Virus record (IMG/VR): IMGVR_UViG_3300031227_000047
Location: 1 to 57,972 of that record
Source of the DNA: a virus
Taxonomy: Duplodnaviria; Caudoviricetes
Reading direction: 5' to 3' (one strand)
DNA: 57,972 bases
The position numbers were made by a program. Position 1 is the stretch's first letter. Each line of letters opens with the position of its first letter. This document shows positions 15,001 to 18,000 of this stretch, one piece after another.

Positions 15001-18000
15001 TGGCGTTTCGTTGTTTAACATTTGAGGATTACCACCTTGCTTATGATGAAAATAATAATGTTATTGCGATTGTGTATTCTGTTCCTGTCGTGCCTCTTTG
15101 TCGTTTTAACAAAACCGATTGGTTTGTTAAAACGAATGATGGCAAATTTAAAAGATATAATGATCATGACTTCAATAATATCTACACTCTCGTGGATAGT
15201 ATTTGCTTTCCATTCTCGCTCTTGGAGTTAAAAGTGCAATTACGAGCTGTCAATGACTTGATTAAACATTGGAAACACAACTTAGTTCAATTAGAAGAAA
15301 TAAAAGTCCAAGGGGATTCTTGTACCTGTTGTGCTTTTTCGCCTCAAGGCGATCTATGCCATTCTTGTCCTATATTTCAAAAAACTAAACTAGATGCCTG
15401 TAAGGGTACGCCTTGGGGCCAGGCATATGATTGTCTTAAGATTGCAAAAACTGCATTTGAAAAGGAAATCGCCTTTTTGCATAACATTCGATCCGAACTA
15501 CAGGTTAAAGTTAATGAACATGAAAGTAAAAAGAAAAGATCTGAATAATTTCACTTTACTTTCAAAGTGATTTGATATATAATAAATTTGACGATCAAGG
15601 TAAGCGACAATATGCGAAGTACAAAAAATCAAATCAATATAAAAACCCTTGCGGGGTTGGTGCGGGTTCTTGTCTCGTCAAACAAGATTCGCTTTTGTCG
15701 CACCTGTACCACCCCGCAAGGGTTTTTTGTATTTATGAGATGAAGAATGAATGGTCCTTCCTCTTTAACAGAATTGTTTAAATCAAATGGATTTTTACAA
15801 GTTCATCGAGTTTTGATTTTGCGAATGGGACTTACTCCAGCTGTTTATCTTTCTTATATTTTTTCAATAATTAGACAAGAAAAAAAGAGCACAAACGACT
15901 GGATTTTGATTGACTTAAAAAAGGTAAGATTTGAAACTGGATTATCTTTTCATAATCAAAGAAAAAGCCGTTCTTTTTTGGAAGAAAAAGGCATGATGAA
16001 ATGTAGGGTAAAAGGGTATTTTCTTTATGCTCAATTAGCAGAAAAGAGGATTTTTTCTTTCTTGAAAAAAACCAAACCGATCAATATATTAACAGGTTTA
16101 GATGAAAAACCGATCAATATTTTAATCAAACCGATCAATATATTAACAGGATCCGATCAAAATATTGATCGCTCTTATAATAGTAAGAGAAAAGAAAGAG
16201 AAGAAAGAAAAAATAAACAAAAAGAAAATCCATTTTTTTCTGGAAAGTCCCATGAAAAGATCTTACTCAAAATTTCCAAAAATGAAATTATACTTTCTCC
16301 AAGAATCATTTTCAATTTGTGGAATGCAATTTCTAAAAAAACAGATTTAAAGAAATGTACTTTTTTGGATGTGAAGTTGAAAAAACAAATTTCCAGTTTA
16401 CTCAATTCATATCCACCGAAAGTTTGGGTATCTGCATTTGAAAATTTAAGTGGAAATGATTGGTTGCATTCCCAAAGTTGGTTTAGCCTGGATTGGTTAG
16501 TGAAAGATCAATCAAATCTCAGGAAAGTTGCGGAAGACCAGTATCATCAAAATGAGGATCAACCAAAAAAACAAAATAGACCAGCAAATGCGGCAGGATA
16601 TGATCAAGTTCCAGCTTTAATGGAAAAGGCTTGGAAAAACCGGATTAGATTGGATACAAAAGAATGAAATCCCAATACCAGATTAAAATACTCAGGAACA
16701 CGTTCATTTCACTCTGTATGGGGTTTTCTTTCATTTTTACTAATAATACCTTGATAGAGGTTCTCAAACGCTTACAAACGATTACAGAGGTTTTTAGATA
16801 TTTGGAAAAACAAACAAGGAGAAAACAGTTATGTCATTTGGATTACCAGGAAAAGTTTTAAAAGCAATCGGGACAATTGCAAGTAATGATCCTACCAGGG
16901 AAAATTTGAATTACGTTCATATTTTGCCAAAGGAGGAGAAAGTACTTATCGAAGCTACAAATGGGAGAGTTGCTTGTCGTTTAATAACCAGTCAATCAGT
17001 AGCTAATGAATGTTTTATAAGACGAGAAATATGTCTTGGATTGAAAGCAGTAGATATATGTGTTTTTACTGATACCTCGTTTTTAGCAGGACAAGCTACT
17101 TTTCCTCTTGTTTTAAAAGATGATTTTGAAAAAAAGGTAAAAGATCAATCAAATAGTAAGAAGTATCCAGACTTAGATCAAGTATTACCAAAAAAAGATG
17201 TAGAGTTTGGAATACCCGCCGTGGATTTTGCTTGTCCTGTTTTGTTATCTGTTTTTAAAATGATTCACGCACTTGAACCTAAATATGCAATCCGGTTTAA
17301 TTTTCTTCCAAATCGTATGATGTTTATGCAAGTTGAAACAGCTTATGGAAATCTTGAAGTTGTTGTAATGGGAGTGACAAGGGTGAATTGTAAATTAGAC
17401 TTGTAAAAATCATTATGGTTTTGAGGTTTGTAGAAGGTGAGATTTTGAAAAAAGAAAAATGTATGGTTTGCCAAAAAAATGAGGCTTTATGGGATCCAGG
17501 TTTAAAAGAGTTTGTTCCATGTTTGGATTGTCTCAAAGAAAAACGACGTGTTGGAATGGAACATATTCTAAATAGGTCTCTTCAAAGATCTGGTATTCCC
17601 AAACGATTTTTAGAAGCTAAGTTGCAAGATTTTAAAAAGCCAACTTGTGATCTTAATCCAAATACAGGATTTTTAGTCACTGGCCCTGTCGGTTGTGGGA
17701 AGACTCATTTGCTAGCAGCTTTAGCAAGGGAACTGATTTTAGATTCCAAGCAAGTTTTGTTTGTTCAATCCTCCACATTTTTAAAAAGGGTGAGAAATGA
17801 AATTCAGGGGAGCAAAACAGACCTAATAGAAAAAGCTATTTCAGTTCCATTTCTTTTCTTGGATGATTTTGGAACTGAAAAAGTAACGGATTGGGTTTAT
17901 GAGACTTGGTTCACACTTCTGAATGAGCGGTATTCAGAATGCAGATATATCAGTGTATCTGCAAATTCTCCAGATACTTTGGATGGAAGACTTTTCAGGC

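What the first reader, a model, noticed from the sequence alone, without database searches (positions are those of the whole stretch)
15555..15747. C4/CI-like structured RNA or attenuator gating the replication initiator
Seen: after a consensus promoter, a long stem (15641-15667 with 15702-15727, G.U pairs favouring the + strand) ends in a U-run and encloses a hairpin TCTTGT-CTCGTCAA-ACAAGA and a single-stranded TTCGCTTTTGTCGC. Upstream, TTTGACGA (15587-15594) is complementary to the hairpin loop region TCGTCAAA, and GCGACAA..GCGAA (15604-15618) is complementary to the single-stranded part. Known: P1 C4 and P4 CI RNAs use two exposed segments to pair with sites in their own leader. Inference: RNA-based control of the initiator operon, which may indicate plasmid-like or carrier maintenance in a phage with no visible integrase.
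Basis: partly seen in the sequence, partly recalled or inferred. Interest (0 to 1): 0.7.

Follow-up and report, generated by a model that had tools for sequence, protein, structure and literature searches.

The report
Branched terminator RNA before phage initiator
An uncultured salt-lake phage has a probable promoter followed by an unusually long, branched terminator hairpin just before its replication-initiator gene, and the hairpin's exposed parts match its own leader, which suggests RNA-based dosing of replication, but there are no relatives or expression data to test this.

Summary
Bases 15641-15727 form a 26-pair stem (24 Watson-Crick, 2 G.U, one bulged U). It encloses a 6-bp hairpin with an 8-nt loop and a 14-nt open stretch, and a run of six U follows. 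It is the second most stable 100-nt fold in the window (z about -6). A promoter of a class that recurs in this phage lies 58 nt upstream. The initiator gene, which has a weak ribosome site and four internal iterons, starts 19 nt after the U-run, so its transcripts must pass the hairpin.

Two leader segments are complementary to the loop and to the open stretch. Matches this good to both occur in 0 of 2000 shuffles and 2 of 1989 genomic windows.

The C4/CI reading is only partly supported. The shape resembles the Rfam C4 model, but there is no C4 hit even at E<=10. There is no downstream target copy. The two segments lie in the same order as their targets, whereas in P1 and P4 the order is reversed.

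No homologue of the element was found. The one syntenic relative joins primase directly to initiator. Contigs of four runs show no variants, and no RNA run was listed.

Best reading: a leader terminator that throttles initiator expression and releases a roughly 140-nt self-complementary RNA. Nothing supports plasmid-like maintenance.

The parts
14904..15548 (+). Upstream orphan gene (P0002, 214 aa, Cys-rich C-terminal part), lying between the primase gene and the element
   Evidence: ORF with an AAGGAG ribosome site. No Pfam or PHROG hit. The 5.8-billion-cluster search found only the protein itself. The fold was poor, pLDDT 44. The gene is absent from the syntenic relative L007.
15551..15570 (.). 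Palindrome TCACTTT-N6-AAAGTGA overlapping the -35 hexamer; possibly an operator, function unknown
   Evidence: The exact form is unique in the window. The 4 matches at up to 3 mismatches are within chance expectation.
15555..15583 (+). Sigma-70-type promoter TTTACT-17-TATAAT; predicted start near 15590
   Evidence: Scores 10 of 12. The same hexamers and spacing recur in the intergenic gaps at 19937 and 35370. Of 14 strong + strand matches, 8 lie in the 6.2% of the window that is intergenic. The start point is inferred, not shown.
15587..15600 (+). Leader segment A1 (TTTGACGA-t-CAAGG), complementary to the inner hairpin loop and the 5' side of its stem
   Evidence: duplex -13.6 kcal/mol, or -11.4 if the RNA starts at 15590.
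15604..15618 (+). Leader segment B1 (GCGACAA-tat-GCGAA), complementary to the open stretch B'. It contains the ATG at 15612-15614, with AAGG at 15597-15600 upstream.
   Evidence: duplex -15.3 kcal/mol, about -12 after opening costs. Co-transcriptional folds form B1:B' before the 3' arm exists.
15612..15743 (+). Hypothetical 43-codon leader ORF. It runs through the hairpin and ends at TGA 15741-15743, 3 nt before the initiator ATG and in the same frame.
   Evidence: Weak support: 258 of 5000 shuffles give a comparable ORF. TGA is an ordinary stop here, ending 25 of 61 genes.
15641..15667 (+). 5' arm of the 26-pair closing stem
15668..15687 (+). Inner hairpin (6 bp) with the 8-nt loop CUCGUCAA, which carries A'
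   Evidence: Loop bases are unpaired with probability 0.96 or more.
15688..15701 (+). Open 14-nt stretch B' (UUCGCUUUUGUCGC)
   Evidence: opening cost 0.9 kcal/mol
15702..15727 (+). 3' arm of the closing stem
15723..15728 (+). U-run (six U) directly after the GGG at the base of the stem: intrinsic-terminator signature. The A-run 15641-15645 gives a U-run on the minus strand too.
   Evidence: Sequence; pairs
15747..16667 (+). Replication initiator gene (P0001, 306 aa) with a weak ribosome site
   Evidence: Of 28 aligned sequences (P0001 and 27 distant relatives), 25 hit PHROG families named DnaD-like helicase loader or replication initiation protein. P0001 itself hits none. Its upstream sequence lacks the AAGGAG seen before most other genes.
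16074..16168 (.). Four 19-nt iterons (AAACCGATCAATATATTAA and variants) inside the initiator gene: probable origin of replication
   Evidence: They are read as a repeated KPINIL peptide in the protein.

Best explanation
The element is a promoter-proximal leader element of the replication-initiator operon.

Transcription probably starts at the promoter at 15555-15583. After about 50 nt it meets an unusually long, branched intrinsic terminator (15641-15728). Most transcripts would end there and release a stable RNA of roughly 140 nt. Only read-through transcripts carry the initiator gene, which starts 19 nt after the U-run behind a weak ribosome site, and then the RusA-like, DnaC-like and DnaB-like genes. 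The hairpin therefore throttles how much initiator is made.

The loop of the inner hairpin and the adjacent open stretch are complementary to two segments of the same leader. I think this pairing is used for feedback, within one molecule or between a finished short RNA and a nascent leader. This is what P4 CI RNA does with seqA and what IsrK does with its own read-through form.

Shown: the structure, its exceptional stability, its position, the promoter class and the non-random complementarity.

Inferred: the transcription start, termination, read-through, and any effect of the pairing.
For: - The hairpin is real and exceptional: z -6.1, 0 of 200 shuffles as good, and the second most stable 100-nt window of the 58 kb.
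- A GC-rich stem base is followed by six U.
- The + strand folds 4.2 kcal/mol better than the minus strand, through two G.U pairs.
- The promoter has the same hexamers and spacing as the intergenic sites at 19937 and 35370. Of 14 strong + strand matches, 8 lie in the 6.2% of the window that is intergenic.
- There is no room for a promoter between the U-run (ends 15728) and the ATG at 15747. That gene lacks the AAGGAG seen before most other genes.
- The two plain terminators of this phage have 13- and 14-bp stems with 10- and 4-nt loops. The 34-nt branched interior here is therefore extra.
- Leader-to-interior complementarity to both segments was matched by 0 of 2000 shuffles and 2 of 1989 genomic windows.
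- The exposed segments are accessible, and B1:B' is worth about -12 kcal/mol net.
- The two complementarities are not a simple inverted duplication, because their order is kept while each segment is inverted.
- The anatomy parallels the Rfam C4 consensus and P1 c4.
- P4 CI sits in the leader of the operon that carries the P4 replication genes and pairs with an upstream site, seqA (passages of PMC4825925; the sites were verified on the P4 sequence).
Against: - There are no expression data. No RNA run was listed.
- There is no conservation or covariation. No homologue of the element was found in the phage collection, IMG/VR or species genomes.
- The only syntenic relative (primase 44% identical) joins primase directly to initiator, with no such leader.
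- Contigs of the four runs laid on the stretch show no variant there.
- The leader does not compete for the 5' arm of the stem. The fold with the terminator is -55.1 kcal/mol, against -26.5 with the 3' arm held unpaired. Pairing therefore cannot prevent termination in the classical way.
- A start near 15590 would truncate segment A1.
- Keeping both segments in the same order forces a crossing (pseudoknot-like) geometry, unlike P1 and P4.
- The hairpin is nearly as good on the minus strand, with a U-run there too. It could therefore be a plain two-way terminator.
Confidence: 0.4

Rival explanations
1. It is a plain, strong, two-way intrinsic terminator or insulator that ends the early transcription unit (helicase, methylase, primase, orphan gene). 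Leakage gives the low initiator level needed. The promoter-like site and the leader complementarity have no regulatory role.
For: - A GC-rich stem is flanked by an A-run and a U-run, so it would terminate on both strands.
- The phage has at least one other internal terminator with no promoter after it, at 21557-21598 before the clamp gene.
- The relative L007 works without the element.
- There is no alternative antiterminator fold.
Against: - The 26-pair stem and the 34-nt branched interior are unlike the two ordinary terminators of this phage.
- A promoter of the recurrent class sits upstream of the hairpin rather than after it.
- The double complementarity is rare by chance: 0 of 2000 shuffles and 2 of 1989 windows.
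Confidence: 0.28
2. It is an RNase III processing or stability element. The 26-pair helix would be cut by host RNase III. This would separate upstream from downstream message and set the stability or translation of the initiator mRNA, as at the T7 early-gene sites or the lambda N leader (recalled knowledge, not checked here).
For: The helix has 26 pairs with a single bulge, which is longer than the roughly two turns that RNase III needs (recalled). It lies between two gene blocks transcribed in the same direction.
Against: Nothing here tests cleavage. The U-run and the exposed complementary segments are not explained by this reading. The host and its RNases are unknown.
Confidence: 0.1
3. It is a protein-dependent antitermination module like lambda Q-PR'-tR'. 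The Cys-rich 214-aa gene just upstream would encode a factor that loads at the promoter, perhaps at the palindrome 15551-15570, and lets polymerase pass the terminator.
For: The gene order (factor gene, strong promoter, short leader, strong terminator, long operon) mirrors the lambda late-gene switch (recalled). The palindrome overlapping the -35 hexamer is unique in the window. The 214-aa gene and the element are absent together from L007.
Against: The protein has no Pfam or PHROG match and no relatives. Its fold is unusable, pLDDT 44, and the atlas gave no named look-alike. Nothing links it to Q families.
Confidence: 0.07
4. It is a DNA-level element. This could be a cruciform, or a set of protein-binding sites near the origin, such as a site for the initiator, the primase or a repressor. 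The inverted segments would then be binding sites rather than RNA pairing partners.
For: It lies about 350 bp from the iterons and next to the primase gene. The stem is almost as good on the other strand.
Against: - The two G.U pairs become A-C mismatches on the other strand and in a cruciform.
- The segments do not resemble the iterons.
- The T-run directly after a GC-rich stem is a transcript signal.
- The motifs occur nowhere else in the window.
Confidence: 0.05

Closest known systems
P4 CI RNA (Rfam C4, RF01695) with its targets seqA and seqC
   Same: - It lies in the untranslated leader of the operon that holds the phage's replication genes.
- It has a long closing stem that encloses a hairpin loop and a following open stretch, and these carry the antisense segments.
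- A complementary two-part site lies upstream in the same leader (passages of PMC4825925).
   Different: - There is no covariance-model hit here, against 74.9 bits for P4.
- P4 has a second target downstream that overlaps a ribosome site. None exists here.
- In P4 the target order is reversed relative to the RNA. Here the order is the same.
- The stem is 26 pairs here against 17 in the model, with one inner hairpin instead of two.
- This element ends in a U-run terminator, whereas CI RNA is generated by processing of a primary transcript (PMC4825925).
P1/P7 c4 antisense RNA with a1/b1 and a2/b2
   Same: A two-part site lies upstream (a1, b1) of a structured RNA. One segment of that RNA is in a hairpin loop and the other in the adjacent open stretch (record annotation; sequence check).
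   Different: - c4 acts on a2/b2 downstream, repressing icd-ant translation (record annotation; review PMC12197685, passages).
- The RNA order is b' then a', against targets a then b.
- c4 controls an antirepressor, not replication.
- The family is reported from Proteobacteria and their phages (table in PMC2864571).
IsrK of Gifsy-1 (short terminated RNA acting on its own read-through form)
   Same: A promoter is followed by a terminator. The terminated short RNA and the read-through mRNA share a 5' part, and the short form pairs in trans with the long form. A small ORF couples translation to the downstream gene (abstract and passages of PMC4825925). Here a 43-codon ORF ends 3 nt before the initiator ATG.
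   Different: There is no isrK model hit. IsrK activates translation, and the sign of any effect here is unknown. The leader ORF here is only weakly supported.
Ordinary intrinsic terminators of the same phage (5968-6003 and 21557-21598)
   Same: A GC-rich stem followed by a U-rich run in an intergenic gap.
   Different: Those have 13-14 perfect pairs and loops of 10 and 4 nt. This one has 26 pairs and a 34-nt branched interior, and the interior parts match the leader.

Membership tests
Rfam C4 antisense RNA (RF01695: P1 c4, P4 CI) | Scores at or above the family's gathering score (45 bits) against the covariance model | tested here: not met
   There are no Rfam hits at gathering score in the whole window. 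There is no C4 hit at E<=10 in a 501-nt search or a 99-nt search. Positive control: P4 CI scores 74.9 bits.
Rfam C4 antisense RNA (RF01695: P1 c4, P4 CI) | A long closing stem enclosing a hairpin whose loop, together with a following single-stranded stretch, carries the antisense segments | tested here: met
   Here there are 26 pairs, a 6-bp hairpin with an 8-nt loop and a 14-nt open stretch. The model consensus has 17 pairs, two hairpins and an open stretch. P1 c4 folds the same way.
Rfam C4 antisense RNA (RF01695: P1 c4, P4 CI) | Complementary target sites both upstream and downstream of the RNA, the downstream one at the ribosome site of the controlled gene | tested here: not met
   An upstream copy is present. 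There is no further copy of either motif anywhere in the window. P4 and P1 have both copies.
Rfam C4 antisense RNA (RF01695: P1 c4, P4 CI) | Target segments in reversed order relative to the RNA segments (a discontinuous antiparallel duplex) | tested here: not met
   The order is reversed in P4 and P1. Here the leader has A1 then B1 and the RNA has A' then B'.
Rfam C4 antisense RNA (RF01695: P1 c4, P4 CI) | Mature RNA cut out of the leader transcript by processing (RNase P is recalled for the 5' end) | not testable with these tools
   The sequence shows a U-run terminator at the 3' side instead. No RNA data were available.
Intrinsic (Rho-independent) terminator | A GC-rich stem followed directly by a U-run on the transcribed strand | tested here: met
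   CCC/GGG at the stem base is followed by six U at 15723-15728. The simple scanner did not call the whole hairpin, because its loop limit is 8 nt.
Intrinsic (Rho-independent) terminator | Actually ends transcripts | not testable with these tools
   No RNA run was listed.
Classical transcription attenuator (terminator against antiterminator fold) | An alternative fold that sequesters one arm of the terminator stem | tested here: not met
   The leader pairs with the interior, not with the 5' arm. The fold is -55.1 kcal/mol with the terminator and -26.5 with the 3' arm held unpaired.
Countertranscript-driven attenuation (pT181/pIP501 type, recalled) | An antisense promoter within the leader | tested here: not met
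   There is no promoter-like site on the minus strand within or next to the leader. The nearest is at 16315-16287.
Lambda Q-type antitermination module | A Q-family protein encoded just upstream of the promoter | tested here: inconclusive
   The 214-aa protein has no Pfam or PHROG hit and no relatives. Its model is too poor to compare, pLDDT 44.
DnaD/O-like phage replication initiators (for the downstream gene) | Homology to initiator families and iterons in or next to the gene | tested here: met
   The link is transitive. Of 28 aligned sequences (the protein and 27 distant relatives), 25 hit PHROG families named DnaD-like helicase loader or replication initiation protein. There are four iterons at 16074-16168. 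The protein itself hits no family directly.

The most novel reading that the evidence does not exclude
It could be a translation-coupled, self-antisense attenuator.

The two leader segments flank and cover a ribosome-loading site: AAGG at 15597-15600 and AUG at 15612. That site would start a 43-codon ORF that runs through the whole terminator hairpin and stops 3 nt before the initiator's AUG, in the same frame.

A ribosome that loads early would follow the polymerase, keep the 26-pair stem from forming (giving read-through) and hand over to the weak initiator start by termination-reinitiation.

If loading is slow, the interior segments mask the loading site, the terminator forms and a short RNA is released. 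These segments could belong to the same transcript or to short RNAs already made.

Initiator dose, and transcription towards the origin, would then be set by a race between ribosome loading and RNA pairing, with negative feedback from the terminated product. The segments keep the same order as their targets, which differs from the reversed order seen in P1 and P4.
Probability: 0.12. Interest if true: 0.75.

Novelty: new variant of a known kind. Interest (0 to 1): 0.4.

Why it matters
If the pairing is functional, riboregulation of the C4/CI/IsrK style would extend in three ways. It would reach a distant, uncultured salt-lake phage whose genes have strong Shine-Dalgarno sites. It would apply to control of a replication initiator in a phage with a full replisome of its own. 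It would use a different geometry, with the segments in the same order as their targets and a terminator-made 3' end.

It would also give a compact, self-contained part (promoter, leader, terminator) for dosing a downstream gene.

If the pairing is not functional, the element is simply an unusually elaborate terminator. That is of local interest for annotating this phage's transcription units.

Tried and rejected
Rfam:
- There was no hit at gathering score in the window.
- At E<=10 the only hits were generic long-hairpin matches such as miRNA precursors, far below their thresholds. I treat these as chance.

Searches for homologues of the element or its neighbours:
- blastn of 1.8 kb and of the 111-nt element against 50,697 phage records found no match.
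- tblastn of the initiator against the same records found no match.
- The helicase gave only distant partial matches: 63 records, all under 60% identity.
- A stem-arm pattern in IMG/VR gave 5 loci, all unrelated GC-rich palindromes.
- The inner-hairpin 20-mer in IMG/VR gave 0 matches.
- The 28-mer interior in species genomes gave 0 matches.
- Single-protein scans of IMG/VR with the initiator, helicase and primase gave no relatives.
- An initiator alignment gave none in IMG/VR, none in species genomes and one locus, L007, in metagenomes.
- A primase alignment gave two distant IMG/VR loci and none in species genomes. L009 has a different gene order (primase, small ORF, HNH, ligase), an unstructured gap and no initiator relative in its 88-kb record. 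L010 ends at the primase.
- A terminase relative, L008, lies on a 25.8-kb fragment without the primase.
- Word-index protein searches returned only the query itself for the initiator and for the 214-aa protein.

Sequencing runs:
- 16 runs were listed, all labelled salt lake metagenome, and no RNA holder was listed.
- Contigs of four runs laid on 14800-16800 showed no differences and no joints. They cover the hairpin fully in X3 and X4 and partly in X5. No microdiversity was therefore available for covariation.

Other checks:
- The small hairpin around the initiator start (-5.6 kcal/mol, z 0.06) is not significant.
- The fold of the 214-aa protein was too poor for a fold search, and the atlas gave no named look-alike.
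- Earlier findings of the scan held nothing on this genome and one unrelated note by sequence.
- A genetic-code explanation for the in-frame TGA was rejected, because TGA ends 25 of 61 genes.
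Full report
**Setting**

The window is a whole IMG/VR virus record of 57,972 bases, estimated about 69% complete. All credible genes are on the + strand, and most have strong AAGGAG ribosome sites.

The finding lies in a 198-nt gap (15549-15746) inside the replication region.
- Upstream are a helicase (8643-10028), a cytosine methylase (13138-13821), a Toprim primase (13999-14880) and a 214-aa Cys-rich orphan gene (14904-15548).
- Downstream are a 306-aa gene (15747-16667), a 65-aa ORF, a RusA-like resolvase, a DnaC-like loader and a DnaB-like helicase. 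Further on come a clamp, a DNA polymerase in two ORFs, a clamp loader, a UvsX-like recombinase and nucleases.
- All 16 sequencing runs listed as holding the stretch are labelled salt lake metagenome.

**The downstream gene is a replication initiator**

The 306-aa protein hits no Pfam or PHROG family itself, and a word-index search found only the protein itself. An exhaustive HMMER search found 53 proteins at E<=0.001, including the query itself.

I aligned the protein with 27 of those relatives. Of the 28 sequences, 25 hit PHROG families named DnaD-like helicase loader or replication initiation protein, and 24 hit one named replication initiation O-like.

Four 19-nt iterons lie inside the gene at 16074-16168. 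They are read as a repeated KPINIL peptide. This is the lambda-O style of origin within the initiator gene (recalled).

**The observation**

- The stem 15641-15667/15702-15727 has 26 pairs: 24 Watson-Crick and 2 G.U, with one bulged U.
- It encloses a 6-bp hairpin with the 8-nt loop CUCGUCAA and a 14-nt mostly open stretch.
- Six U follow the GGG at the stem base.
- The fold is far more stable than shuffles (z -6.1, 0 of 200 as good).
- It is the second most stable 100-nt window on the + strand.
- The minus strand folds almost as well and also has a U-run. For the hairpin alone the + strand is 4.2 kcal/mol better because of the G.U pairs.

**The promoter**

TTTACT-17-TATAAT at 15555-15583 scores 10 of 12. 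In that 2-kb scan promoter-like sites were not enriched overall (8 found, 6.8 expected).

Across the window the picture is clearer. Of 14 strong + strand matches, 8 fall in the 6.2% of the DNA that is intergenic. The same hexamers and spacing recur at 19937 and 35370. Those two sites, with the TTTACA site at 6180, form a family with conserved flanks. The site at 15555 shares the hexamers but not the flanks.

None of the other promoters is followed by a strong hairpin. They run into a ribosome site within about 25-85 nt.

**The complementarities**

- TTTGACGA occurs twice in 58 kb, at 15587 (+) and 15675-15682 (-).
- The two-part GCGACAA/GCGAA motif is exact only at 15604 (+) and at 15688-15701 (-).
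- Both matches extend. CAAG pairs with the 5' side of the inner stem, and AGGU pairs with ACCU at 15702-15705.
- Leaders that pair as well with both interior parts were 0 of 2000 shuffles and 2 of 1989 other windows of the phage.
- The interior parts are accessible. B1:B' is worth about -12 kcal/mol after opening costs, and the loop contact is weaker.
- The order A1, B1 ... A', B' is not that of an inverted duplication, which argues for two separately kept pairings.

This test was made after the site had been chosen, so the true significance is lower than the raw numbers suggest.

**What the element cannot be**

- It is not a classical attenuator. The leader never competes for an arm of the long stem. 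The fold with the terminator is -55.1 kcal/mol, against -26.5 with the 3' arm held unpaired.
- It is not countertranscript control. No minus-strand promoter-like site lies in or beside the leader.
- It is not a detectable member of any Rfam family.

**Comparison with C4/CI**

As a control I ran the same Rfam search on P4. CI RNA scores 74.9 bits for C4, and the seqA region scores 60.8 bits for isrK.

The C4 consensus is a 17-pair closing stem around two hairpins and an open stretch. The general plan is therefore the same as here.

The details differ:
- On the P4 sequence, both targets read GTGAGAA then TTCACAGG, while CI reads CCTGTGAA then TTCTCAC. The order is reversed, as a discontinuous antiparallel duplex requires.
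- P1 is the same. Its annotated targets are a then b, and c4 carries b' at position 37, in the loop, then a' at position 51.
- In the window the order is not reversed. Simultaneous pairing of both parts would need side-by-side helices or a pseudoknot.
- No downstream copy of the targets exists.
- The 3' end would be made by termination rather than by processing.

IsrK is a closer functional parallel. It is a short RNA ended by its own terminator, and it acts on its own read-through form through a small coupled ORF (abstract and passages of PMC4825925).

**Relatives**

No homologue of the element was found.

The only syntenic relative is metagenome contig L007. Its primase is 44% identical over 266 residues, and its initiator relative is P0003. 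There the primase gene ends at 820, and the initiator ATG at 813 overlaps it. It has no 214-aa gene and no leader.

The orphan gene plus the element are therefore an accessory block of this phage and not a fixed part of the replication module.

Contigs of four runs are identical to the window wherever they cover it. No covariation can be read from them.

**Mechanism**

The U-run ends at 15728 and the initiator ATG is at 15747, so no promoter fits between them. All initiator transcripts must therefore pass the hairpin. The gene also lacks the strong ribosome site of its neighbours.

I read the element as a throttle on initiator expression that releases a roughly 140-nt RNA. I think its elaborate, leader-complementary interior is probably used for feedback (confidence 0.4).

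The rivals are:
- a plain two-way terminator (0.28);
- an RNase III processing or stability site (0.1);
- a Q-like protein-dependent switch using the upstream orphan gene (0.07);
- a DNA-level site (0.05).

**A bolder reading**

B1 contains an AUG at 15612 with AAGG 11 nt upstream. This opens a 43-codon frame that runs through the hairpin to TGA 15741-15743, 3 nt before the initiator AUG and in the same frame.

A comparable ORF arises in 258 of 5000 shuffles, so on its own it is weak evidence. TGA is an ordinary stop in this phage.

If the ORF is real, A1 and B1 bracket its ribosome-loading site. The interior segments would then mask that site. A translating ribosome would both melt the terminator and deliver coupled initiator translation.

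**Lifestyle**

Among the 40 proteins scanned I saw no integrase, repressor or partition gene. I did see a full replisome and an endolysin. This gives no support for plasmid-like maintenance, although about 31% of the genome is unseen.

**Literature**

- Weinberg et al. 2010 (PMC2864571): I saw the table rows and one passage. They list the c4 antisense RNA for Proteobacteria and phages.
- The IsrK paper (PMC4825925): I saw the abstract and passages.
- A 2025 review of phage small RNAs (PMC12197685): I saw passages.
- Supplements were not consulted.

I make no claim that such an element is absent from print. My searches were aimed at the C4/CI family only.

Noticed in passing
window 16074-16168: Four 19-nt iterons (AAACCGATCAATATATTAA and variants, spaced 33, 21 and 22 nt) lie inside the initiator gene and are read as a repeated KPINIL peptide. 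This is probably the origin of replication, in the lambda-O style.
   Followed up: partly
window 6068-6208, 19937-19965, 35268-35398: A family of promoter modules has about 40 nt of conserved upstream sequence and a conserved AATCTTACATTTGAAG after the -10 hexamer. They occur in tandem pairs at 6068/6180 and 35268/35370, with a single copy at 19937. These are probably the phage's main host-polymerase promoters.
   Followed up: partly
window 21557-21598 and 5968-6003: Two ordinary intrinsic terminators have 14- and 13-bp perfect stems. The one at 21557 sits inside an operon before the clamp gene, with no promoter after it. This phage therefore tolerates or overrides internal terminators.
   Followed up: partly
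window 51474-51540: The most stable local fold of the whole window (-53 kcal/mol, z -6.7) lies inside the first 150 nt of the 871-aa gene 51401-54016, in the tail region. I did not scan that gene against any family. The fold is unexplained.
   Followed up: no
window 12429-12459 and 13112-13142: An exact 31-nt direct repeat, which includes the ribosome site and a GTG start, flanks the gene 12455-13141 (phrog_12193) just before the methylase gene. It looks like the scar of a gene-cassette insertion or duplication.
   Followed up: no
window 16315-16287 (minus strand): A promoter-like site, TTGAAA-17-TATAAT (11 of 12), points leftwards through the iterons and the 5' part of the initiator gene towards the two-way hairpin. 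It could make an antisense RNA. However, 8 sites of this quality occur on the minus strand by my scan, so it may be chance.
   Followed up: partly
window 23349-24560 and 24544-25869: The DNA polymerase is encoded in two overlapping ORFs that match consecutive parts of one PHROG profile (positions 475-828 and 834-1236). It is either split or frameshifted.
   Followed up: no
window 6592-7702: Short repeated gene starts (28-nt and 25-nt repeats that include the ribosome site and ATGAC) precede several small early genes at 6621, 6969, 7234 and 7695, which suggests a small paralogous family.
   Followed up: no
L007 1-1891: A metagenome contig holds a related primase (44% identity) fused tail-to-head with a related initiator (P0003). 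It has no intervening gene or leader.
   Followed up: yes
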